A stretch of DNA of 64,000 nucleotides, from the NCBI GenBank assembly GCA_026645815.1, contig JAPKMR010000012.1, positions 26,728-90,727 on the forward strand, given 5' to 3'. How positions within the stretch are numbered: position 1 is the first letter of the stretch; every line of letters begins with the position of its first letter. Source of the DNA: Anaerolineae bacterium (lineage in GTDB: Bacteria > Chloroflexota > Anaerolineae > B4-G1 > SLSP01). A program made the position numbers and the translations under genes. Below the pieces are notes generated by a model. That model did not search any database, was not told the origin of the DNA, and was given only the letters and a program-made list of their open reading frames with translations. Shown in pieces: positions 2,630 through 47,072 of the stretch.

Positions 2630-2699
2630 AGTTAACCCTCACCCTTTGAGGTGCATGTATTATACCCATATTTGGGACACTTGTCATCATCAGATCGGG

Positions 2700-2945
2700 T
2701 ATGGGACAAATTATTGGGAAGTTCAGAGGTCAGATTGGTGAGACCATGGGTTTAGCACTTTGACGCGCCAAAGCGACGCAGAGGGAGGTTGTTTTATCAT
2801 TTTCGTGGACGGCGAAGCCCACCTGTGGGCTTTTACCCCGTCCACGAAAATGACATGCAGAAAGAAACGCCGAGTACGGCAGCGCAGAGATGTGAGCGCT
2901 GATGAAGGCCGTCTACAAGATGGCGGCCTTATTTTCCCAATAGAC
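2700..2945 (+). repeat. repeat family A, copy A1 (full length, about 250 bp) with long hairpin at 2797..2853
   Basis: Alignable by eye to 29737..29985 and 18022..18148. Shared core: ggacaaatNattgggaagttcagaggtcagattggtgagaccatgNgtttagNcactttgacgcgccaaag. Perfect 16-bp stem tcattttcgtggacgg/ccgtccacgaaaatga. Ends with a small hairpin aaggccg..cggcctt followed by attttccc. Confidence 0.8.
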
Positions 2946-2968
2946 TACGGCTTTCAGCCGCCCCGCGC

Positions 2969-6249: not shown

Positions 6250-6433
6250 CCACTGCAAAAAATGGGCATTCGTAGCAGTTCAGAAAGGCTCTCTGCGTAC
6301 CCTATGAGGCTCGCTGTGCGATTGGGTTGCTACTACGCAACCTGGAGCGAAGGCCTTGCTGGCGCTTCAGGTGCGGCGTAAGGTGCGTAGCGCGATTTCG
6401 GTCAGCGACCTGCTACGAAATCCCCAATGGGAG

Positions 6434-6480
6434 GCATAGGACAAATTATGGGGAAAACCCAGAAGCTGTGTCAGGATCAA
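6434..6480 (+). repeat. degenerate 5' fragment of repeat family A
   Basis: ataggacaaattatggggaaaacccagaagctgtgtcaggat resembles the first 40 nt or so of A copies (ataggacaaattattgggaagttcagaggtcagatt). It overlaps the 3' end of the Mut7-C CDS. Confidence 0.4.
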
Positions 6481-7037: not shown

Positions 7038-7196
7038 TGTATTTCATGCCGGGGGCGGCAATCTCAAACACCCCTATAGGGCGTGCTAGAAAATTGATTT
7101 TTTGCGGCGTGGCTGCGCCACACCGCAAAAAATCACCCAAAGGAAAAGTATTTGCGTGATAATCGTCTTTTTTGCCCCAGAGGTGAAACGCACCCC
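7038..7196 (+). repeat. repeat family B, copy B1 (MITE-like, central long hairpin)
   Basis: Alignable to 29563..29723, 39677..39852 and 46963..47072. Right terminus tgaaacgcacccc; left terminus degenerate. Central hairpin ttttttgcggcgtgg-ctgc-gccacaccgcaaaaaa. Confidence 0.75.
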
Positions 7197-8717: not shown

Positions 8718-11174
8718 ATGACCAAGAGCCGTTCAAGTCCAAGTAAACCCACGACATCCAGCACACGCCAACCGTCGAACCGACGGCGGCAACGCCCGTC
8801 GAAGCGACGTTCTACGCGCAAGGAGCCGCTCATCCAGCTGAGCCGCGACCAATGGCTGGATTTACTTGGTGGCGCGCTCATACTGGTTGCGCTGGCAACC
8901 ATCCTCAGCCTACTCTCGCCGCAGCAGGGCGCCCTGACCCAATTATGGCTGGTGGGGCTGAAAAAAGTCTTCGGTTGGGGCATGTTCATCGTTCCCCTCT
9001 TTATAGGCGCTTTAGGGCTGTGGCTGATTCTGCGGCGCTTTGATGACCGTCTGCCGCGCCCACAACCTGAACAGGTCGCCGGAGTAGGCATTGGTTTTCT
9101 CACCGCACTCATGACGCTACACCTGATTGCTGCACGCATTTTCTGGCCCGGCGTTGGTCACTTTCAACTTGTGGAGCTAGGAGAAGGTGGGGGACTGATT
9201 GGTGCAGCCCTGCTAGATCTGTCCGTGAAGTTGATTGGTGTAGCCGGCGCCGTGGTGACGCTGCTGATGCTCTGGCTAATCGTCATCACACTGGTCGTGG
9301 GCATTTCACCAGCTGAGGCTGCGCAGCTGCTGCTCAACTGGCGCGCCCAATCCAAACGCCAGGCTCCCGTAGTCGAACAACTATCCTTCCCCACTCTACC
9401 GCCTGAGGAACCACCACCAGCAGTGGGGACCAACGGCATGAATGCCGCGTCCACAGGGAAAATCTCTGCCCCGAAGCCCTCACCCGTGGTGCTCGGAGGG
9501 GAGGCGCCCGCTCGCAGCGGGCAAGAAAAGCCACCGTTCAAGATCAATGGCAACCGCCCAGAAGAAGAGCATCTTGACTTCAAAATCCCGCCCACACCTT
9601 CCGGATCGCCCTGGCGTTTGCCCGCGATTGCGGAAATTCTCGAGGTTGGAAGTGAACAGAGCTTCAGCGATGATCTCATCCGCAAGCAAGCGCGCACCAT
9701 CGAGGAAACCCTCACCAGCCTCGGCGCGCCCGTCAAAGTGCTGGAAACCAACACAGGACCGGTCGTGGTGCAATTTGGCGTAGAGCCGCTGTTCATTGAT
9801 CTTCGAGGCGGCAAACGCACCAAGGTCAAGGTCAGCAAAATCGCCTCGCTAGCAGACGACCTGGCGCTGGCGCTTTCCGCTCGCAGCATTCGCATTGAGG
9901 CGCCGATTCCGGGCAAAGGTCTGGTGGGTATTGAAGTGCCCAATATCGAGCCTTCGGTGGTGGCATTGCGAGATGTGCTCGAATCCCGCGCATTCGCCAA
10001 GCTCAAAGGTTCATTGCGCATGGGCCTGGGTCAGGATGTCTCCGGGCAGGCAGTCGCTGCGGACTTACGCGTCATGCCCCACCTGCTCATCGCCGGAACC
10101 ACAGGCTCCGGGAAATCGGTCTGTGTAAATGCCATCATCGCCGCGCTTATCCTGCAGAACACCCCGGAAACGCTGCGCATGATGATGGTAGACCCCAAAC
10201 GGGTAGAACTCACGCAGTACAATGGGATTCCGCACCTCCTGACCCCCGTGATTGTAGACGTGGACCGGGTGGTGCCGGCGCTGCGGTGGGTAATGCGAGA
10301 AATGGACACGCGCTACCGACGCTTTGCCAAGGTGGGAGCGCGCAACATCGAAGACTTCAACCGTCGTGCCGGCAAGAAGGGCAGCGAGGACGAGGCCATA
10401 CCCTATATCGTGGTCATCGTAGATGAGCTCGCAGATTTGATGATGCAATCACCGGAGGAGACGGAGCGTGTGCTCTGTCGTTTGGCACAGATGGCACGGG
10501 CAACGGGCATTCACCTCATCGTGGCAACCCAACGCCCCAGCGTCAACGTGGTCACCGGGCTGATCAAAGCCAACTTCCCCGCGCGCATAGCCTTCGCCGT
10601 GGCCTCTTCTGTAGATTCCCGCGTGATTCTGGACATGCCGGGCGCAGAACGCCTGCTCGGGCGCGGCGATATGCTCTTCATGCCTCCAGATGCGGGGCAA
10701 CCCTTGCGCTTGCAGGGAACTTTTGTCTCAGATCGCGAACTGGACCGGCTGATTCAGCACTGGCGCCAGGGGAACGCGGCAACGGTAGTTACCACCGGCA
10801 TGAATGCCGCGCCACCTACCTCCAGCCCGCTCGGCATGAATGCCGCGCCGTTGAAAGATACTCCGCCAATCCCCGCGCAGGAACCCCTTTTCCCGGAATT
10901 CGCTGCGCCCGCGCCCCAATTCGAGGATGAGCTCCTGCCCACCGCCGTGGAGATTTTGCTCGCCGAAGACCGCGCGAGCATCTCCCTACTGCAACGCCGA
11001 ATGCGCATCGGCTACACCCGCTCCGCACGGCTTGTGGATTTGATGACAGATCTCGGCATTGTCACGCCCAATGCTGACCAGGGGCAATTCAGGGGAGTCA
11101 ATCGCGCCGTAGCGGAAGCTTTCCTGCGCTCGATAACCTCCGGGACAAATGAGGATAATGACGAGTCGGCATGA
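8718..11174 (+). CDS. ftsK: DNA translocase FtsK/SpoIIIE (paralog 1)
   Basis: N-terminal TM helices, a long Pro-rich linker and a motor domain (LIAGTTGSGKSVCVN, VVIVDELADLMM, ATQRPSV). Gamma winged-helix at the C-terminus (ISLLQRRMRIGYTRSARLVDLM). Confidence 0.9.
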   Translation: MTKSRSSPSKPTTSSTRQPSNRRRQRPSKRRSTRKEPLIQLSRDQWLDLLGGALILVALATILSLLSPQQGALTQLWLVGLKKVFGWGMFIVPLFIGALGLWLILRRFDDRLPRPQPEQVAGVGIGFLTALMTLHLIAARIFWPGVGHFQLVELGEGGGLIGAALLDLSVKLIGVAGAVVTLLMLWLIVITLVVGISPAEAAQLLLNWRAQSKRQAPVVEQLSFPTLPPEEPPPAVGTNGMNAASTGKISAPKPSPVVLGGEAPARSGQEKPPFKINGNRPEEEHLDFKIPPTPSGSPWRLPAIAEILEVGSEQSFSDDLIRKQARTIEETLTSLGAPVKVLETNTGPVVVQFGVEPLFIDLRGGKRTKVKVSKIASLADDLALALSARSIRIEAPIPGKGLVGIEVPNIEPSVVALRDVLESRAFAKLKGSLRMGLGQDVSGQAVAADLRVMPHLLIAGTTGSGKSVCVNAIIAALILQNTPETLRMMMVDPKRVELTQYNGIPHLLTPVIVDVDRVVPALRWVMREMDTRYRRFAKVGARNIEDFNRRAGKKGSEDEAIPYIVVIVDELADLMMQSPEETERVLCRLAQMARATGIHLIVATQRPSVNVVTGLIKANFPARIAFAVASSVDSRVILDMPGAERLLGRGDMLFMPPDAGQPLRLQGTFVSDRELDRLIQHWRQGNAATVVTTGMNAAPPTSSPLGMNAAPLKDTPPIPAQEPLFPEFAAPAPQFEDELLPTAVEILLAEDRASISLLQRRMRIGYTRSARLVDLMTDLGIVTPNADQGQFRGVNRAVAEAFLRSITSGTNEDNDESA
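9435..9449. repeat. palindromic 15-mer GGCATGAATGCCGCG, copy 1
   Basis: Exact string. Read in frame as GMNAA within the ftsK linker. Confidence 0.9.
10797..10811. repeat. palindromic 15-mer GGCATGAATGCCGCG, copy 2
   Basis: Exact string. Read as GMNAA in ftsK between the motor and gamma domains. Confidence 0.9.
10833..10847. repeat. palindromic 15-mer GGCATGAATGCCGCG, copy 3
   Basis: Exact string, 36 nt after copy 2. Read as GMNAA. Confidence 0.9.
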
Positions 11175-11182
11175 ATGCCGCG
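11168..11182. repeat. palindromic 15-mer GGCATGAATGCCGCG, copy 4
   Basis: Exact string in a different frame. Its internal TGA (11172..11174) is the ftsK stop codon. Confidence 0.9.
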
Positions 11183-11210
11183 CAAACGCTCAAGTGGCGG
11201 AGGGTGAGCC

Positions 11211-11819
11211 ATGGTAAGTTATCATCTCTATCGTGATGCCTTTTCCGAGGTTTACACCTATCGCTATCGCCTGACCGATGCGACAGGAGCTCTCGAATTG
11301 ACTGCCAGTTGGCCTGGAATGCCTGTAGCTGACCGCCCCGAAGAAGTCGCCTTTACGGATGCTCAGGGGCAACGGTTGGCACTCCTGCGATGGGAAGACC
11401 GCTCCTGGTGGTATGGCGATCGTTTCTGGATATCTGACATACCAACAGCAACGGCAAACGCCGCGGCAATCGCCACCGTCGAAGAGCAATGGCGGATCGT
11501 AGACCGCTTATTGCTACGCCTACCCGGTTATAGATTGACCCTCAATGAGGGCCTCACTCGGGAAGGCAGTTTCATCGCAAGAGGCAGTCGTTACAGCCAA
11601 CAGCTATATGAGCTCTTCGCCCTACGGCATGAATGCCGCTCTACAGGCGAGGGAAATCTCGTAGAAGAAATCCGTGTGGGCGATGTAGCACATCCCACCA
11701 GTGGACCAACCTATATCTTGCAGGTCGAGCATCCATACCTGGAAAGCCATCCCGTGCTGCTCGCCGTCCTGGGGGTGATTTTGGACCTATGGGGCGTGCA
11801 GCGGGAGCAGCGAGCTTGA
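11211..11819 (+). CDS. hypothetical protein (202 aa)
   Basis: Intact ORF filling the gap between ftsK and the HAD hydrolase. No motif recognised. Contains palindrome copy 5. Confidence 0.5.
   Translation: MVSYHLYRDAFSEVYTYRYRLTDATGALELTASWPGMPVADRPEEVAFTDAQGQRLALLRWEDRSWWYGDRFWISDIPTATANAAAIATVEEQWRIVDRLLLRLPGYRLTLNEGLTREGSFIARGSRYSQQLYELFALRHECRSTGEGNLVEEIRVGDVAHPTSGPTYILQVEHPYLESHPVLLAVLGVILDLWGVQREQRA
11626..11639. repeat. palindromic motif GGCATGAATGCCGC, copy 5
   Basis: Exact 14-mer, read in the third frame as RHECR inside 11211..11819. Confidence 0.85.
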
Positions 11820-12502
11820 ACGAAAACAGCATTCCCTTTGACCAGGTGCGCGCCTGGTTCTTCGATCTCGATGGGACGCTGATGGATACCGACGATCAGT
11901 CCGTGGCATCGCTCTCAAAGTGGCTGCGCTTCCTGGGCGCCACACGCGCACAACGGCTTGCGCGGCGCTTGATCATGTTCTCCGAGACGCCATCCAATGC
12001 GGCGCTCACCTTTCTGGATATATTGCACCTGGATACGGCAGCCTTTGCATTGGAAAAGCGCTTCACCCATGCTGGGCGCAGCTATAATTTCAAAATCATC
12101 GAAGGCGTTGTGCCCATGCTGACACAGCTCAGTTCCCGTTATCCGCTGGTGGTAGTCTCCACACGCGGGACCGCAGCCTCAGAAGCCTTTCTCGCACAAT
12201 ATAGCCTCACGTCTCTATTCCCGGTCGCCGTCACCCGTGAGAGCACCCGACGCCTCAAGCCGCACCCTGCACCGGTGCAATACGCTGCACAAGCGCTCGG
12301 ACTCAAACCCGAAGAGTGCGTAATGGTGGGCGATACGACTGTGGATATCATTTCGGCAAGACGAGCAGGGGCCTGGGCCATCGGAGTCTTGTGTGGTTTT
12401 GGCGAGGAAAAAGAGCTCTGGCGCGCTGGCGCGCATCTCGTGTTGCCCACCACGGCAGACTTGCTCGCCATTCAAGCGCTTTTCCCGGCAGCGCCGGTCT
12501 GA
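11789..12502 (+). CDS. HAD-superfamily hydrolase (phosphoglycolate phosphatase-like)
   Basis: Motif I FFDLDGTLMDTD, motif II VVVSTRG, and motif IV MVGDTTVDIISARRAGA. The start is uncertain: ATG at 11789, or TTG at 11816 overlapping the upstream stop. The tracked ORF start at 11633 overlaps the upstream gene heavily. Confidence 0.8.
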   Translation: MGRAAGAASLNENSIPFDQVRAWFFDLDGTLMDTDDQSVASLSKWLRFLGATRAQRLARRLIMFSETPSNAALTFLDILHLDTAAFALEKRFTHAGRSYNFKIIEGVVPMLTQLSSRYPLVVVSTRGTAASEAFLAQYSLTSLFPVAVTRESTRRLKPHPAPVQYAAQALGLKPEECVMVGDTTVDIISARRAGAWAIGVLCGFGEEKELWRAGAHLVLPTTADLLAIQALFPAAPV

Positions 12503-12523
12503 GCATGGCGCACTCCGGCGCTC

Positions 12524-12537
12524 GGCATAAATGCCGC
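12524..12537. repeat. palindromic motif variant GGCATAAATGCCGC, copy 6
   Basis: One central substitution. Lies in the intergenic gap between the convergent HAD and NYN genes. Confidence 0.75.
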
Positions 12538-12569
12538 ATGCTGCCGGCAAGAGACTCAGCCGCGCAAGA

Positions 12570-13700
12570 TCAATCCTCAGAAGCCTCTCCATAGAGCCGG
12601 AACCATTGCTCCCGCTCCTCAGGGCTAAGGCCATCATCGGTTTGAACTGATTCATCGGGCAATTCAGGTGTACGAGCCTGATGCTTACGCAGTTTGGGCG
12701 AGCGGATAGTCTCCGAATGGCGGCGCCGGGCAACTTTGGGCGCTGTCGCTTTGCCAGTCTCATCCACCGCAGGGCCTTCGAATTGCGGTTCCGGAAACAA
12801 TTCCAGCCAGGCCTCGACCTCTTCCGGCGGCAAACCCGCTTCAGTTTCCTTCGGCAAAAATGCCGCATCCACGGCAAGCGAGGCGGGCTTTTGGGGACGG
12901 ACCTGCGCCTTCAACAAGCGTCGCGGTGGATGGGGTCCCTCCGGCACATCATGGAAAACCTGCAACCAATCTGCTACTTCCTCAGCTGAAACCTCCGCCG
13001 GTTTCCCCATCTCCGTGGTTGCAGGGAGATCCGGTTCCGGCGCCAGGGGCACACCCAAACGCTCTGCCAATGTCGGTGCATACGTAGGAGGCTCCGGAAG
13101 TCGCTTCCCAGGGGGCGCCTCCGAAGGCGCAGGTGTCCTGCCAGCGGCGCCCGAAACCGGTGATGAAGGGGGAGGGGGAGGCTGATGCCTGACAGCCGAT
13201 CGGCATAAATGCCGCGTGTGCGCAGCAGGCTCGGGTGGTTCAGGAAAAACTTCCAACCATTCGTGAACTTCAGCAGTTGATGGCTCGCGCGGTTTCTCAA
13301 ATGCGGGGCGGGCTGCGGGCTGTAATTCCAACGCGAACTCCTGGGAGGTCATCACCCGCGCACCGACACGCCGGGCGACATCGAGAATCGCGTGATCAGA
13401 GCTGACCACGGTCCAATTACCCGAATCACGCAGTTTCTCCAGATGCTTGATGATAATACGATCAGCAGTACTGCGTTTATGCGCAGCAAAAATCACCTCC
13501 AAATCCATGCTGGAGAGCTGCCGAGAATAGCCACCGGGAATGCCACCATCAAAAACAACGGTAGCTTTGCGGCGTTTGTGTCCCAGCCAACCCCGTAGCT
13601 TGAGAATCAGAGCGACCTCGTCCTCCGGGTCTTCAATGTGAATATCCGGCAACGCAGCAATCAGATTATGTCCATCAATCAGAAAAGGCATTGGAATCAA
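12570..13700 (-). CDS. NYN/YacP-like RNase domain protein with a repeat-bearing Pro-rich C-terminal extension
   Basis: The N-terminal 130 aa (FLIDGHNLI...VVFDGG...VVSSDHAI) resembles the YacP/Rae1-type NYN domain. The C-terminal 240 aa is Pro-rich with four EEVxxWLxxF-like repeats. Confidence 0.7.
   Translation of the reverse strand: MIPMPFLIDGHNLIAALPDIHIEDPEDEVALILKLRGWLGHKRRKATVVFDGGIPGGYSRQLSSMDLEVIFAAHKRSTADRIIIKHLEKLRDSGNWTVVSSDHAILDVARRVGARVMTSQEFALELQPAARPAFEKPREPSTAEVHEWLEVFPEPPEPAAHTRHLCRSAVRHQPPPPPSSPVSGAAGRTPAPSEAPPGKRLPEPPTYAPTLAERLGVPLAPEPDLPATTEMGKPAEVSAEEVADWLQVFHDVPEGPHPPRRLLKAQVRPQKPASLAVDAAFLPKETEAGLPPEEVEAWLELFPEPQFEGPAVDETGKATAPKVARRRHSETIRSPKLRKHQARTPELPDESVQTDDGLSPEEREQWFRLYGEASED
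12853..12866. repeat. palindromic motif variant GGCAAAAATGCCGC, copy 7
   Basis: Degenerate left arm. Inside the NYN gene, read on the minus strand as AAFLP. Confidence 0.6.
13202..13216. repeat. palindromic motif variant GGCATAAATGCCGCG, copy 8
   Basis: One central substitution. Inside the NYN gene, read on the minus strand as RHLCRS. Confidence 0.75.
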
Positions 13701-17958: not shown

Positions 17959-18021
17959 ATCGGGATTAACGCTCGGTTCTGTTCTACCACAAAGACAAAA
18001 AGAGACAAGGCGTGTAAGGAT

Positions 18022-18148
18022 TATAGGACAAATTAGTGGTGAGTTCAGAGGTCAGATTGGTGAGACCATGCGTTTAGACACTTTGACGCGCCAAAGTGAC
18101 GCAGAGGGTGGGTTTTTTGTGATTTTCGTGGATGGGCTAAGCCCCACC
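18022..18148 (+). repeat. repeat family A, copy A2 (truncated, about 127 bp)
   Basis: Shares the 5' core and the left hairpin arm (gtgattttcgtgg) with A1 and A3, but lacks the right arm and the 3' part. It ends about 10 nt from the comEA stop. Confidence 0.75.
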
Positions 18149-18158
18149 CCCGCGCGAC

Positions 18159-18830
18159 CTAAGGTCCTACAGTAATGTAAGGCGTCAGCCGCTCGTATGT
18201 AGTGGGACCAATGCCTTCCACGTTTTGGAGGTCCTCGACATGCACAAATGGTCCATGCTCCGCACGATAAGCGAGGATGGCTTGTGCGCGAATTTCACCG
18301 ATACCCGGAAGGGTTAGCAAATCCGCAAGCGTGGCGGTATTGAGGTTGATCAATGAAACTGGGGATGCCGGACTCGCAGATGGCACGGACGGCGCTGTGC
18401 GCGTGGGAATGTGGATATGCTGATGGTTGATCAGCGGCGCGGCGAGATTGATGCTCTCAAGATCGGCTTCAGGTGCAGGTCCACCAGCTGCCATCAAGGC
18501 GTCTTCGAGGAGACTGCCGCCAGGTACTTCGACGACCTGGGGTTGCATCACCGCGCCACTGAGGTAGACGCGCAACGTCGTGAGCTCGGGCGTGGATTGA
18601 AGTGCGCCAGCATTGCCGCTTGAAAGGGCACCCGCAGCCTGCGTAACAGGCAATTCCATAGCGGCGCCGGCGTCCGGCTCTGGGGCAGTCAATCGCCCAA
18701 TCAACCCACCAATAATCAGGCAAATCAGAGCGACGAGGGCGACATAGCGCACCGTATATGCCCGCATCTGTCGCCGGATTTCTTCAGGCGCAGGCGGATG
18801 ATCAATCAACCCCAGCTGCTCCACATTCAT
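18159..18830 (-). CDS. comEA: ComEA family DNA-binding protein
   Basis: N-terminal TM, an SLBB-like middle region, and C-terminal tandem HhH (INLNTATLADLLTLPGIGEIRAQAILAYRAEHGPFVHVEDLQNVEGIG). Confidence 0.8.
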   Translation of the reverse strand: MNVEQLGLIDHPPAPEEIRRQMRAYTVRYVALVALICLIIGGLIGRLTAPEPDAGAAMELPVTQAAGALSSGNAGALQSTPELTTLRVYLSGAVMQPQVVEVPGGSLLEDALMAAGGPAPEADLESINLAAPLINHQHIHIPTRTAPSVPSASPASPVSLINLNTATLADLLTLPGIGEIRAQAILAYRAEHGPFVHVEDLQNVEGIGPTTYERLTPYITVGP

Positions 18831-27675: not shown

Positions 27676-28530
27676 TTACAGCGAACCGAGAGCTGGCGAG
27701 TTCAAAACCCCACGAATAATAGTCTCCAGGCGTGGCACCAAAATCCGACCTGCCTCCAGGACCTCCTCGTGATTCGGCGGAGGGCTGCCCTCCTCACCCA
27801 CGAGCCGATTAGAAATGCCCGAAAGACCCAGAACCTCCATGCCACAGTGCCGCGCAGTGATGACCTCTGGAACCGTGGACATGCCGACAGCGTCCGCGCC
27901 AATCAAACGCAGGAAGCGCACATCAGCGGGTGTTTCGAAAGCGGGTCCCGCCAGACAGATGTACACGCCCTGATGATGGGGGATTCCGGCGCGCAAAGCG
28001 ATCTCATGAGCAACGGCGCGCAAACGCGGCGCATAGGCATCATTCATACTTGGGAAACGCGGGCCAAATTCCTCTAGATTGGGTCCAAAGAGAGGGTTGT
28101 GCCCCGCCATACCCAGCAGATTGATGTGATCACGCAGAATCATCACATCGCCCGGCTGATAGGACAGGTGCAGACCACCGGCGGCATTGGTTACAATGAA
28201 AGTCTCTACGCCCAGCAGTCGCATCACGCGCACCGGCAAGCCGATTTGCGCCATGCTGTTGCCCTCGTAGAAGTGCCCTCTGCCCTGCATCGCAATGACA
28301 CTGCGCCCCTCCAGGGCTCCTATGACCAACCTGCCCACGTGCCCCTGGACATGTGCTGCCGGGAAATAGGGAACATCCCCAAAGGGAATCACCGTTGCGC
28401 CCTCAATAGACTCCGCTAACGCATTCAACCCCGAACCCAAAATCATCCCAACAGTGGGTCGAAGCCCACTGCGCTGTTGAATGACGTCCGCAGCTTGCCG
28501 ATAGGCGTCCATAGTGAAATACTCTGTCAT
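27676..28530 (-). CDS. punA: purine nucleoside phosphorylase (trimeric PNP/MTAP family)
   Basis: Matching segments: GMILGSGL, GHVGRLVIGALEGRSVIAMQGRGHFYEG, VTNAAGG, and VGMSTVPEVI. Confidence 0.9.
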   Translation of the reverse strand: MTEYFTMDAYRQAADVIQQRSGLRPTVGMILGSGLNALAESIEGATVIPFGDVPYFPAAHVQGHVGRLVIGALEGRSVIAMQGRGHFYEGNSMAQIGLPVRVMRLLGVETFIVTNAAGGLHLSYQPGDVMILRDHINLLGMAGHNPLFGPNLEEFGPRFPSMNDAYAPRLRAVAHEIALRAGIPHHQGVYICLAGPAFETPADVRFLRLIGADAVGMSTVPEVITARHCGMEVLGLSGISNRLVGEEGSPPPNHEEVLEAGRILVPRLETIIRGVLNSPALGSL

Positions 28531-29492
28531 TCTGTTTCCTCCTCCGTGTGATGGGCAGGCTCAACACCTGCCTCAAAAGCGCGCGGGTGAGCTTGATCAT
28601 AAGCCGCACGTTTACGCTGGCTCGATACTTCGGTATAAATTTGTGTGGTGGTGATACTGGCATGCCCCAGGAACTGCTGTACCTCACGTAAGTCGGCGCC
28701 GCCATCTAAGAGGTGGGTAGCAAAACTATGACGCAAAGTGTGCGGCGTCACACGATCTTCTAATCCAGAATCCTGAGCATACTGCCGAATAATGAACCAT
28801 AAGCCCTGCCGGGTAAGGGGACGCCCCACCCGGTTGAGAAACAAGGTGGTCTCATTGGCGTTGGTGAGCAGAAAAGATCGTGCATCTGAAAGATAACGGC
28901 TCAGAATCTGCTGTGCCCGCGGGTGCAAAGGAATCAGACGCTCTTTGTTACCCTTGCCCACACAACGAAGCATACCACCGGACAAGTCCACATCAGCGGT
29001 TCGCAAGGCGATGACTTCTGTGGCGCGCAAGCCAGCTGCGTAGAGCACTTCCAGGAGCGCACGATCGCGCAACTTAAGCGGCGTCTCCGCCCCAGAAGCC
29101 GCCTGCAATAGCTGTTCAACTTCATGCTCAGAAAGCGCATGAGGGAGACGGTGCCCCACCTTGGGTTGCGGCAGCCATGCAGTGAGCTCGCGCGTGAGCT
29201 CACCCTCAGAGTACAGGAAATGCAAGAATGAGCGCGCGGCAGCAACTTTGCGAGCCACCGTTGCGAGGCTATAAGAGAGTTCCTGTAAGCTCGCAACGAA
29301 ATGTTCAAGCAACTCTGGCGTCAGATCAGACCATGAGTGAAGGTCCTGTGCCTCCATGAAGCCAAGTAGTTGCTCTAAATCGCGGCGATAAGCCGCCAAC
29401 GTGTTGGCGGCATATCCCCGTTCATATTGCATATAGTTCAAGAAGCGATCGAGGCGTGTATGCATTGCTTTCCACAGAATCCTGTTTGCCAA
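28527..29492 (-). CDS. xerD: site-specific tyrosine recombinase XerD/XerC family
   Basis: SAM-like N-terminal domain (YERGYAANTLAAYRRDL). Catalytic residues in GLRATE, LRHSFATHLL and HASITTTQIYTEV. The XerC versus XerD assignment is not certain. Confidence 0.85.
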   Translation of the reverse strand: MANRILWKAMHTRLDRFLNYMQYERGYAANTLAAYRRDLEQLLGFMEAQDLHSWSDLTPELLEHFVASLQELSYSLATVARKVAAARSFLHFLYSEGELTRELTAWLPQPKVGHRLPHALSEHEVEQLLQAASGAETPLKLRDRALLEVLYAAGLRATEVIALRTADVDLSGGMLRCVGKGNKERLIPLHPRAQQILSRYLSDARSFLLTNANETTLFLNRVGRPLTRQGLWFIIRQYAQDSGLEDRVTPHTLRHSFATHLLDGGADLREVQQFLGHASITTTQIYTEVSSQRKRAAYDQAHPRAFEAGVEPAHHTEEETE

Positions 29493-29562: not shown

Positions 29563-29723
29563 GGACGCGTTTCAAAACGGGGGTGAAAATCTCAGGCGCC
29601 ACTACAAGGCACAGGAGAAATTTGATTTTTGGCGGCGGGGTAAAGCCCCGCCGCCAAAAATCAATCAAAAAAGGCATTTGTATGATAGTCGTCTTGCTCG
29701 TGCCCTGAAGCTAAAACGCACCC
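29563..29723 (+). repeat. repeat family B, copy B2
   Basis: Termini gacgcgtttca ... aaaacgcaccc. The central hairpin tttttggcggcgggg-taaa-gccccgccgccaaaaa differs in sequence from B1/B3 but keeps the pairing. Confidence 0.8.
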
Positions 29724-29736
29724 TCGAGGTAGGGGG

Positions 29737-29985
29737 TATAGGACAAATCATTGGGAAGTTCAGAGGTCAGATTGGTGAGACCATGCGTTTAGACACTTTG
29801 ACGCGCCAAAGAGATGCAGAGAGTGGTTTTTTGTGATTTTCGTGGACGGGCCAAGCCTCACCACGAAAATCACGCTTGCAGAAAGAAGCGCCGAAGGGTG
29901 TGCTAAGCACCCCTACGGCGGTGCAGAGAGTTAATCGCTAATGCGAGTTGGTTGCAAGATGATGGTCTCATCTTTCTCCAATATT
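29737..29985 (+). repeat. repeat family A, copy A3 (full length)
   Basis: Begins 13 nt after B2. Hairpin gtgattttcgtgg/ccacgaaaatcac. The 3' portion aligns with A1 through caagatg...ttctccaata. Confidence 0.8.
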
Positions 29986-30060
29986 CTGTCGTATACCCCC
30001 AGGTAGGGCATTTGTAGCAGTTGGAGGGGTTTCGTGGTCTGCTGCAGCGTTCGAGTTGAC

Positions 30061-39676: not shown

Positions 39677-39852
39677 GATGCGTTTCATGCTGAGGCGGCA
39701 ATCTCAAACGCCCCTATAAGGCGCGCCCTGTAGGGGCATGTTAGAAAGGTGATTTTTTGCGGCGTGGCTGCGCCACGCCGCAAAAAATCACTCGAAGAAA
39801 AGGTATTTACATGATAGTCGTCTTATTTCTGCCGGGGGCGGTCGCTTCAGGC
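39677..39852 (+). repeat. repeat family B, copy B3
   Basis: Left terminus gatgcgtttca. Central hairpin ttttttgcggcgtgg-ctgc-gccacgccgcaaaaaa. The right terminus is degenerate. Carries a 14-nt insertion relative to B1. Confidence 0.75.
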
Positions 39853-46962: not shown

Positions 46963-47072
46963 GGGGTGCGTTTCAAAACGGGCGTAAAAATCTCAGGCGC
47001 CCCTACAGGGCGCAGAAGAAAAGGCATTTATAGGATAGTCATCTCGCTTTTACCCGAAAGTTGAAACGCATC
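46963..47072 (+). repeat. repeat family B, copy B4 (central hairpin deleted)
   Basis: Best-preserved terminal inverted repeats: ggggtgcgtttcaa ... ttgaaacgcatcc. The internal hairpin segment is missing relative to B1-B3. Confidence 0.75.

What the first reader, a model, noticed from the sequence alone, without database searches (positions are those of the whole stretch)
2700..2945. Repeat family A: a roughly 250 bp structured element in three co-oriented copies, with compensatory hairpin changes
Copies at 2700..2945, 29737..29985 and a truncated one at 18022..18148, plus a possible 5' fragment at 6434..6480, share a highly conserved 100-nt core. That core is followed by a long hairpin. The hairpin arms differ between A1 (tCatttt.../...aaaatGa) and A3 (tGatttt.../...aaaatCa) by a paired C-to-G / G-to-C change, while the loops are unrelated. 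The stem is therefore preserved and the sequence is not. The full-length copies end in a small stem followed by a T-rich run on the plus strand (aaggccg..cggcctt attttccc in A1). All copies are in the same orientation and lie in gaps between two minus-strand genes, that is, antisense to their neighbours and just 3' of hpt, comEA and the GT28 gene. This fits a multi-copy small RNA gene or a non-autonomous structured mobile element. I could not match it to any RNA family I know.
Basis: seen in the sequence. Interest (0 to 1): 0.6.

Follow-up and report, generated by a model that had tools for sequence, protein, structure and literature searches.

The report
Promoter-seeking miniature transposon family (MITE)
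Repeat family A is a small non-coding jumping element (a MITE), not a small-RNA gene; it is present in dozens of copies in this Anaerolineae bacterium and its close relatives, and it lands at a fixed spot just upstream of gene promoters, as ISKra4-type insertion sequences do.

Summary
The three copies are real (A1 2697-2942, A2 18019-c.18148, A3 29734-29998). The '5' fragment' at 6432-6480 is the end of a different, related family.

- **Abundance.** Metagenome contigs put the 100-nt core at about 35-60 copies per genome equivalent.
- **Relatives.** Two related Chloroflexota MAGs hold 17 and 9 further copies.
- **Transposon anatomy.** Full-length copies are 235-370 bp. They have dissymmetric terminal inverted repeats (GGGTATAGGACAAATTATTGGGAAG ... 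CTCCAATATTCTGTCGTATACCC) and 9-bp target duplications. Six duplications are perfect; A3's matches 8/9.
- **Promoter spacing.** In 29 copies with a unique 5' flank, a -35-like hexamer lies exactly 16 nt from the 5' repeat end in 10 (background 4%, p about 1e-7). A -10 box follows. The 3' flank shows nothing.

This matches the published signature of ISKra4-group Mutator-like transposases: GGG ends, 9-bp repeats, oriented insertion 15-17 bp upstream of sigma-A promoters. It explains the shared orientation and the B-A-C stacks.

The 'RNA structure' is terminal-repeat pairing plus a DNA palindrome. Rfam gives no match, and G.T pairs are not favoured over A.C mismatches.

Verdict: a new member of a known kind.

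The parts
2697..2942 (+). Copy A1, a decayed MITE. Its 5' inverted repeat is intact; the last ~15 nt of the 3' repeat and the target duplication are lost.
   Evidence: other copies diverge from A1 after about 2936-2942
2697..2721 (+). A1 5' terminal inverted repeat, GGGTATGGGACAAATTATTGGGAAG
   Evidence: 1 mismatch to the consensus; the left boundary is sharp, and flanks of other copies have no consensus before 2697
2796..2854 (.). A1 long palindrome (16-bp stem with an extended top); carries the C2798/G2852 compensated pair
2867..2885 (-). Mini-hairpin insertion CGCCG-AGTA-CGGC(A)G. On the minus strand it is followed by TTCTTTCT, so it is terminator-like for hpt read-through.
   Evidence: absent from the Zod and UR copies
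2659..2687 (-). Sortase-gene promoter ATGACA-17-TATAAT, 9 nt from A1's 5' end
   Evidence: 11/12 match; the orthologous promoter in L125 lies 16 nt from its A copy
18019..18148 (+). Copy A2: mutated 5' repeat (GATTATAGGAC), core and left hairpin arm. The right part is replaced, and the right boundary is uncertain (18148-18175).
   Evidence: In variant strains the sequence left of 18159 differs.
29734..29998 (+). Copy A3, a full-length MITE of 265 bp with both terminal repeats
29725..29733 (.). Left copy of A3's 9-bp target duplication, CGAGGTAGG
   Evidence: 8/9 match with the right copy
29999..30007 (.). Right copy of A3's 9-bp target duplication, CCAGGTAGG
29833..29873 (.). A3 long palindrome, GTGATTTTCGTGG...CCACGAAAATCAC
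29888..29924 (.). A3 mini-hairpin CGCCGA...ACGGCG with a second hairpin (GGGTG..CACCC) nested in its loop
29563..29723 (+). Family B copy (B2), stacked between A3 and the promoter of the XerC/D-like recombinase gene. Its terminal repeat GG(G/A)(T/C)GCGTTTCA resembles ISKra4-group ends.
   Evidence: supplement of PMC3942029
29520..29547 (-). Promoter-like TTGGTT...TATAAT of the recombinase gene 28527..29492, 15 nt from B2's end
6432..6480 (+). 5' end of a different MITE family (D) that shares only the terminal GG(G/C)(T/A)ATAGGACA; not a family A fragment
   Evidence: (L128:610)

Best explanation
[quoted passage not shown] A DDE transposase encoded elsewhere moves it. That transposase is most probably a Mutator-like enzyme of the ISKra4 group (p-MULT 4).

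The transposase binds the two dissymmetric ~25-nt terminal repeats (GGGTATAGGAC... and ...GTCGTATACCC). It inserts the element 16 bp upstream of the -35 box of a sigma-A-type promoter, with the 5' repeat facing the promoter, and duplicates 9 bp of target.

Every new insertion goes to the same spot. MITEs of several families with GGGT... ends (A, B, C, D) therefore pile up in tandem upstream of promoters, with the youngest next to the promoter.

**Shown:** the repeats, the duplications, the copy number, presence in three species, the 16-nt spacing, and the orientation.

**Inferred:** the identity of the transposase, current activity in the window's own strain, and the stacking order.

The conserved 'fold' is the terminal repeats pairing with each other plus an internal DNA palindrome. 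An RNA function is not needed to explain it.
For: **High copy number.** 44-93 DNA contigs per metagenome lie on the element, and assemblies break inside it. Summed k-mer depth over the core is 358-978 against 9-20 for the flanks, which gives about 35-60 copies.

**Copies in other contexts.** They occur at unrelated loci in other metagenomes (L013, L099-L104).

**Copies in two related MAGs.** There are 17 loci in Anaerolineae Zod_Metabat.1288 and 9 in Chloroflexota UR.bin201.

**Terminal inverted repeats.** They are conserved in 13 full copies, and left and right repeats are 17-20/23 identical to each other.

**9-bp target duplications.**
- Perfect in six copies: L113, L116, L138, L120, L129, L136.
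- 8/9 in window A3, and 8/9 in L125 after a 1-nt register shift in its G-run.
- 7/9 in L134.

**Promoter spacing.**
- Of 29 copies with a unique 5' flank, 10 have at least 4/6 of TTGACA exactly at offset 16. The background rate is 4% (binomial p = 1.2e-7).
- TATAAT-like hexamers (at least 5/6) peak at offsets 38-39.
- Seven unique 3' flanks show no signal.

**Family B behaves the same way.** Its ends lie 15-16 nt from -35/-10 pairs.

**Published signature (Guerillot et al. 2014, PMC3942029).**
- IRs of 18-39 bp with a terminal C.
- Direct repeats of 8-9 bp.
- Insertion 15-17 bp upstream of -35, peaking at 16.
- Orientation set by dissymmetry between the two IRs.

**IR ends in that paper's supplement.**
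- ISKra4-group ends are GGGTGCATTT, GGGTGCGGCTC, GGGTGCGACTC, GGGTGCAGTCG and GGGCGTAGCC, with DR 9 in all except ISBeg3, GGGTGCAGTCG, listed as 0.
- ISLre2/TnGBS elements end differently, as ...ACACGGAC.

**Turnover between close relatives.** The orthologous sortase-hpt spacer of the Zod MAG (hpt 98% aa identity) holds a differently placed A copy with a perfect duplication plus C and B modules.
Against: - No transposase gene with these ends was found: none among the 14 largest ORFs of the window tested against Pfam or NCBIfam, and no transposase-like repeated ORF in the 33 other loci.
- Family A's repeat shares only GGGT with published ISKra4-group ends. Family B's shares 7-9 of the first 10 nt.
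- In the window's own lineage, the distance from A's end to the best -35 is 7-12 nt (A1: 9), not 16.
- Three full copies (L100, L128, L110), all abutting other elements, have no recognisable duplication.
- No clean empty site for a window copy was recovered.
- The palindrome keeps its pairing through compensated changes at 9 of 17 stem positions. Plain neutral decay would not do this, so some constraint or copying process acts on it.
Confidence: 0.8

Rival explanations
1. Family A is a MITE, but a different transposase moves it. Candidates are the ISLre2/TnGBS branch of Mutator-like enzymes (p-MULT 3), which also targets promoters, or another family that makes 9-bp duplications (IS4, the IS903 group of IS5, IS1, IS256).
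For: - p-MULT 3 elements give the same 16-bp spacing, insert in a strictly oriented way, and have about 72% IR complementarity. That is close to the 74-87% seen here.
- Family A's repeat shares only GGGT with listed ISKra4-group ends.
Against: - ISLre2/TnGBS ends listed in the supplement read ...ACACGGAC...ACACGATC and ...ACACATAC, with no GGG.
- In that study ISLre2 was found in Firmicutes, Fusobacteria and Synergistetes, whereas the ISKra4 group includes Chloroflexi.
- Co-stacked family B has GGGTGCG ends like ISCasp2/3 and ISAcce1.
- IS256 insertions are reported as random with respect to promoters. For IS4, IS903 and IS1 I know of no promoter targeting; this rests on my own knowledge.
Confidence: 0.12
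2. The copies are genes for a structured small RNA transcribed from the plus strand. The conserved core and hairpin are kept by selection on the RNA.
For: - Very stable predicted folds (z = -5 to -7).
- Compensated stem positions.
- One 211-nt metatranscriptome contig covers a copy.
Against: - The minus strand folds equally well (z = -5.3 and -7.7).
- No Rfam match.
- No promoter-like site on the plus strand and no conserved terminator.
- The covariation term is +1.34.
- G.T pairs (8) are not favoured over A.C (12).
- The closing helix is simply the transposon's terminal repeats.
- The RNA contig has depth 2 and includes 35 nt of upstream flank.
- Interiors are interrupted by variable hairpin insertions and tandem arrays.
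Confidence: 0.05
3. The element is mobile, but its interior has also been co-opted by the host. The palindromic cassette and the minus-strand terminator-like mini-hairpin would insulate the targeted promoter from upstream read-through or alter its strength. This reading does not exclude the best explanation.
For: - 94% of 525 stem cells are Watson-Crick, and 9 of 17 positions are compensated.
- Palindromes in different families share the base GTG(A/T)TTTT...AAAA(T/A)CAC but have different tops.
- In window-lineage copies, a GC hairpin followed by TTCTTTCT faces the upstream gene.
- Every copy sits directly upstream of a promoter.
Against: - The long palindrome is preceded by a T-run and followed by an A-run on both strands, so it is not an intrinsic terminator in either direction.
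- The mini-hairpin is absent from the Zod and UR copies.
- No expression data are available.
- Perfect palindromes can be kept by copying between arms at the DNA level.
Confidence: 0.15
4. The element is a REP/BIME-type or IS200/IS605-type hairpin repeat, moved by a single-strand HUH (RAYT/TnpA) enzyme.
For: - It is hairpin-rich and occurs in mosaic clusters with other repeats.
- The same window holds tiny hairpin insertions (note e1-3085443).
Against: - It has ~25-nt terminal inverted repeats and 9-bp target duplications, which those elements lack.
- It sits at a fixed distance from -35 boxes.
Confidence: 0.02

Closest known systems
ISKra4-group insertion sequences (p-MULT 4 prokaryotic Mutator-like elements; ISKra2/4/5/6 of Ktedonobacter, ISAcce1, ISCasp2/3; Guerillot et al. 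2014, PMC3942029)
   Same: - Ends start GGG (terminal C).
- Inverted repeats are within the 18-39 bp range.
- Direct repeats are 9 bp.
- Insertion is 15-17 bp upstream of the sigma-A -35 box.
- Members occur in Chloroflexi.
- Family B's end GGGTGCGTTT matches ISCasp2/3 and ISAcce1 in 7-9 of the first 10 nt.
   Different: - No transposase gene; the element is 235-370 bp against 1.4-3.7 kb.
- Family A's repeat shares only GGGT.
- The two repeats are 74-87% alike and insertion is oriented. The published ISKra4-group elements with 83-100% complementary IRs were found in both orientations.
- The cognate IS was not identified.
[quoted passage not shown]
   Same: Oriented insertion with one repeat 16 bp from the -35 box; 9-bp direct repeats; dissymmetric repeats.
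   Different: Their ends read ...GACACnnAC, not GGG. Their hosts are Firmicutes, Fusobacteria and Synergistetes. They are autonomous or conjugative elements.
Modular intergenic MITE-like repeats of other bacteria: Correia elements of Neisseria and BOX elements of Streptococcus pneumoniae (from my own knowledge, not tested here)
   Same: Short non-coding elements with terminal inverted repeats, present in tens to hundreds of intergenic copies. They have variable internal modules and fold into long hairpins when transcribed.
   Different: Correia elements duplicate TA. Neither is known to sit at a fixed distance from -35 boxes. There is no sequence similarity.

Membership tests
MITE (non-autonomous DDE transposon) | Terminal inverted repeats at both ends | tested here: met
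   13 full copies; IRL and IRR are 17-20/23 identical to each other
MITE (non-autonomous DDE transposon) | Target-site duplication of fixed length flanking independent copies | tested here: met
   9 bp: six perfect, two 8/9, one 7/9; three copies abutting other elements have none
MITE (non-autonomous DDE transposon) | Small, non-coding, many copies at unrelated loci | tested here: met
   235-370 bp; no reading frame is conserved across copies; about 35-60 copies by depth; 26 loci in two other MAGs
MITE (non-autonomous DDE transposon) | Filled and empty sites between strains | tested here: inconclusive
   - Variant strains read a family C element at A1's 5' junction.
- The orthologous spacer in the Zod MAG has a different element content.
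- No clean empty site was recovered.
MITE (non-autonomous DDE transposon) | Autonomous partner with the same terminal repeats | not testable with these tools
- None found among the window's tested ORFs or in 33 other loci.
- A padded-query protein search found nothing.
ISKra4-group (p-MULT 4) dependent element | IRs of 18-39 bp with a terminal C, ends GGG | tested here: met
   GGGTATAGGAC... / ...GTCGTATACCC against the listed ISKra4-group ends
ISKra4-group (p-MULT 4) dependent element | 9-bp direct repeats | tested here: met
   DR 9 for ISAcas3, ISAcce1 and ISCasp2/3
ISKra4-group (p-MULT 4) dependent element | Insertion 15-17 bp upstream of the -35 box of sigma-A promoters | tested here: met
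   Peak exactly at offset 16 in 10/29 copies (p = 1.2e-7), with a -10 box at offsets 38-39. The window's own A copies lie at 7-12 nt; window B copies lie at 15-16 nt.
ISKra4-group (p-MULT 4) dependent element | IR sequence similarity to a classified ISKra4-group IS | tested here: inconclusive
   Family A shares only GGGT. Co-stacked family B shares GGGTGCG(T)TT.
ISKra4-group (p-MULT 4) dependent element | ISKra4-family transposase present in the same genome | not testable with these tools
Small-RNA gene or known Rfam family | Match to a curated covariance model | tested here: not met
   0 hits at gathering threshold; only noise at E up to 10
Small-RNA gene or known Rfam family | Conserved own promoter and terminator on one strand | tested here: not met
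Small-RNA gene or known Rfam family | Covariation that favours RNA pairing (G.U tolerated) | tested here: not met
   Covariation term +1.34; 8 G.T against 12 A.C among 525 stem cells
Small-RNA gene or known Rfam family | Discrete transcript | not testable with these tools
   Only direction-less contigs were available, with one metatranscriptome contig of depth 2.
REP/BIME or IS200/IS605-type hairpin element | No terminal inverted repeats and no target duplication | tested here: not met
   Both are present.

The most novel reading that the evidence does not exclude
The interiors of these promoter-seeking MITEs may be selected modules rather than passive cargo. The modules in question are the conserved 100-nt core and the exchangeable perfect palindromes, which share a GTGATTTT/AAAATCAC base. 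They could act as insulators or roadblocks, or as processed structured RNAs, delivered exactly 16 bp upstream of promoters. On this reading, MITE stacks would form a lineage-wide layer of promoter regulation in Anaerolineae. A second, unknown process would add mini-hairpins (NNNNN-AGTA-NNNNN) and their tandem arrays inside the elements.
Probability: 0.15. Interest if true: 0.6.

Novelty: new member of a known kind. Interest (0 to 1): 0.4.

Why it matters
- **Annotation.** It removes a false lead. These intergenic 'structured RNAs' in Anaerolineae MAGs are transposon copies and should be annotated and masked as such. They also explain why short-read assemblies of this lineage break every ~15-20 kb.
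- **Promoter markers.** Each young copy marks a sigma-A promoter to the nucleotide (-35 at +16), which gives free promoter annotation for uncultured Chloroflexota.
- **Published record.** In the library I could search, no paper describes MITEs of the promoter-targeting Mutator-like transposases. The stacking of several families at the same promoter is direct evidence of repeated homing to one site.
- **Possible effects on expression.** Whether the stacks change promoter output is untested.

Tried and rejected

**Searches that found nothing**
- Exact core patterns (26-mer, 18-mer, 23-mer) gave only chance hits in 185,579 species genomes. Only the 5' repeat pattern found relatives.
- The single metagenome scan gave one real copy, L013.
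- TIR-like pairs 1.7 and 4 kb apart in L134 and L128 enclose ordinary genes, not a transposase.
- Looking for a coding remnant of the parent transposase inside the element: the frames are not conserved, and a padded-query search with MRLDTLTRQRDAEGG... found nothing.
- No transposase among 14 large window ORFs tested against Pfam or NCBIfam.

**Ideas dropped**
- A Tn3-like element with a 5-bp duplication (AGGTA around A3): dropped once nine further copies showed the duplication is 9 bp.
- An IS200/IS605 omega-RNA or PATE, and a REP/BIME element: dropped because of the terminal repeats and duplications.
- The long hairpin as an intrinsic terminator: rejected, because a T-run precedes it and an A-run follows it on both strands.

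**What worked as a workaround**
A spurious ORF across B2+A3 was used as a protein query to harvest copies from metagenome contigs.

Full report
**1. The observation**

The three copies are real.
- A 104-nt core is shared at about 90% identity.
- An 18-mer from the core occurs three times in the window against 0.04 expected.
- The paired C/G to G/C difference in the long hairpin is there. A1 is the odd copy: nearly all other copies in four metagenomes have G at 2798 and C at 2852.
- Both strands fold far better than shuffles, with z from -5 to -8.
- Rfam finds nothing at gathering thresholds, and only noise at E up to 10.

**2. Copy number and spread**

- Between 44 and 93 contigs per run lie on the element, and assemblies break inside it.
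- Summed k-mer depth over the core is 358-978, against 9-20 on the single-copy flanks. That is about 35-60 copies per genome equivalent.
- The first ~48 nt are higher still, at 70-130 times the flank depth.
- Core patterns gave nothing in 185,579 species genomes. One copy turned up in a metagenome contig, L013.

To harvest more copies I used a spurious ORF across B2+A3 as a protein query. I then fetched the contigs that encode its 'homologues'. This yielded L099-L104, which hold copies in unrelated contexts.

A degenerate pattern for the 5' end then found 17 loci in the MAG 'Anaerolineae bacterium Zod_Metabat.1288' and 9 in 'Chloroflexota bacterium UR.bin201'. The Zod MAG is a close relative: hpt is 98% identical at the protein level and the sortase 90%.

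**3. Anatomy**

Thirteen full-length copies align end to end.
- They start with GGGTATAGGACAAATTATTGGGAAG and end with CTCCAATATTCTGTCGTATACCC. These are terminal inverted repeats that are 17-20/23 identical to each other.
- They are flanked by 9-bp direct repeats. Six are perfect: CAAGTGTTC, CTGGTTGAG, GCCAAATGG, CAAGTGTGG, ACAGCTGCG and TGTCAATAG.
- Window A3 matches 8/9 (CGAGGTAGG and CCAGGTAGG). L125 also matches 8/9 once the G-run is put in register. L134 matches 7/9.
- Three copies that abut other elements show no duplication.
- No reading frame is conserved.

Family A is therefore a MITE.
- A3 is a complete copy, 29734-29998.
- A1 (2697-2942) has lost the last ~15 nt of its 3' repeat.
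- A2 has mutated ends and a replaced right half.
- The 'fragment' at 6432-6480 is the end of another family that shares only the first dozen bases.

**4. Where it lands**

In every locus, the gene to the left of the element is on the opposite strand, with its start 60-120 nt away. I read the 5' flanks outward from the repeat.
- Among 29 copies with a unique flank, the mean match to TTGACA jumps from about 1.5 to 2.97 at exactly offset 16.
- Ten copies have at least 4/6 there, against a 4% background (binomial p = 1.2e-7).
- TATAAT-like hexamers (at least 5/6) peak at offsets 38-39.
- Seven unique 3' flanks show nothing.
- Examples: L116 TTGACA-17-TAGAAT, L113 TTGACA-16-TATACT, L125 GTGACA-17-TATAAT.
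- Family B ends behave the same way. In the window, B4 has TTGCGA-16-TATAAT at 16 nt and B2 has its promoter at 15 nt.

**5. Comparison with what is known**

Guerillot et al. 2014 (PMC3942029) describe prokaryotic Mutator-like transposases.
- Their inverted repeats are 18-39 bp with a terminal C.
- Their direct repeats are 8-9 bp.
- Two lineages insert 15-17 bp upstream of sigma-A -35 boxes, peaking at 16: TnGBS/ISLre2 and the ISKra4 group. The ISKra4 group includes ISKra2/4/5/6 of the Chloroflexi member Ktedonobacter.
- Orientation is set by dissymmetry between the two repeats.

The supplement lists element ends.
- ISKra4-group ends are GGGTGCATTT (ISAcce1), GGGTGCGGCTC and GGGTGCGACTC (ISCasp3/2), GGGTGCAGTCG (ISBeg3) and GGGCGTAGCC (ISAcas3). 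DR is 9 for all except ISBeg3, listed as 0.
- ISLre2/TnGBS ends read ...ACACGGAC, without GGG.

Family A meets the three structural criteria: GGG ends, 9 bp, and 16 nt to the -35 box. Family B, which is stacked with A, also resembles the published ends in sequence (GGGTGCGTTTCA).

The one defining feature I could not test is the transposase gene itself.
- None turned up among the 14 large window ORFs tested against Pfam or NCBIfam.
- None is in the 33 other loci.
- I found no paper on MITEs of these transposases in the library.
- Earlier AI notes of this scan report similar elements in other Anaerolineae. I saw them only after reaching this reading, and they are not independent evidence.

**6. 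What this explains in the window**

- **Orientation.** All three copies face the same way because the three promoters they sit upstream of are all on the minus strand. These are the promoters of the sortase gene, the DUF2298 gene, and the XerC/D-like recombinase gene.
- **Stacks.** Contigs also show A followed by B, and A followed by A, 8-22 nt apart. B2-A3-C at 29563-30045, and A-C-B in the orthologous Zod spacer, fit repeated homing to the same promoter, with the newest element nearest to it.

**7. RNA or DNA structure?**

RNAalifold's consensus consists of the terminal-repeat helix plus the palindrome. Its covariation term is +1.34, so there is no net support.

I examined 31 palindromes from families A, B and others.
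- 494 of 525 stem cells are Watson-Crick.
- 9 of 17 positions show two or more pair types.
- G.T pairs (8) are not commoner than A.C mismatches (12). This argues against selection on RNA pairing as such.
- A T-run precedes each palindrome and an A-run follows it on both strands, so it is not a terminator.

Something keeps the arms matched, but what it is remains open. The options are copying between arms or selection on the DNA hairpin. In window-lineage copies only, a mini-hairpin followed by TTCTTTCT on the minus strand could terminate read-through from the upstream gene.

**8. Loose ends**

- In the window's lineage, the A ends lie 7-12 nt from the best -35 box rather than 16. A1 is 9 nt from ATGACA-17-TATAAT.
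- Strains with 96-98% identical flanks read a family C element directly after 2696, yet they also carry A1's right half.
- RNA evidence is one 211-nt contig of depth 2.

**Verdict**

Family A is a real, abundant, lineage-specific MITE with the ISKra4-type promoter-homing signature. It is a new member of a known kind. The small-RNA reading is not supported.

Noticed in passing
window 7038-7196, 29563-29723, 39677-39852, 46963-47072: Family B is the same class of element.
- Its ends are GGGTGCGTTTCA...TGAAACGCACCC, like the ISKra4-group IS ISCasp2/3 and ISAcce1.
- -35/-10 pairs lie 15-16 nt from its ends: B4 TTGCGA-16-TATAAT, B2, and the 3' end of B1.
- It sits upstream of radA, pcrA/hrcA and moeA.
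   Followed up: partly
window ~30001-30045 and ~6380-6431 (inverted); L138:96, L125:4960-5110, L104:1-75: A third family (C) has the consensus start GGGTATAGGAGGGCATTCGTAGCAGTTCGAGGGGC. It shares A's first 10 nt and often lies next to A copies. Decayed copies flank A3 on the right and the element end at 6432.
   Followed up: partly
window 2867-2885, 29888-29924; L101, L107, L112, L113, L117, L118, L120, L124, L128, L129, L137: Mini-hairpins of the form NNNNN-AGTA/TACT-NNNNN occur as insertions inside MITE copies.
- They are sometimes nested, as in A3.
- In UR.bin201 they are amplified into tandem arrays of 4-9 units of GCGTTGAGTACAA(C/T).
- The mechanism is unknown. They may be related to the 15-nt hairpin insertions reported for 9435-13216 of this window (e1-3085443).
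   Followed up: no
window 2696/2697 (runs X3, X4): Strains whose flank is 96-98% identical read AGGATAGGCATTCGTAGCAGTTCAGCGGGC (family C) directly after 2696. That is the same junction as A1's 5' end. It is a strain polymorphism whose history I could not resolve.
   Followed up: partly
L125:4640-5336 against window 2630-2968: The orthologous sortase-hpt spacer of the close relative Zod_Metabat.1288 is 690 nt and holds A (perfect duplication), C, B and a further palindrome. The window's spacer is 339 nt with A1 alone. The repeat content turns over quickly while hpt stays 98% identical.
   Followed up: partly
L099:4890-4978: A truncated A copy abuts a perfect TTGACA-17-TACAAT promoter in front of alaS. 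The element's right hairpin arm was replaced by promoter sequence.
   Followed up: no
L102:924-2090: A DDE_Tnp_1 / DDE_Tnp_1_assoc (ISAs1-like) transposase gene lies on the same metagenome contig as a B copy. It is unrelated to these MITEs, and no matching ends were seen.
   Followed up: no
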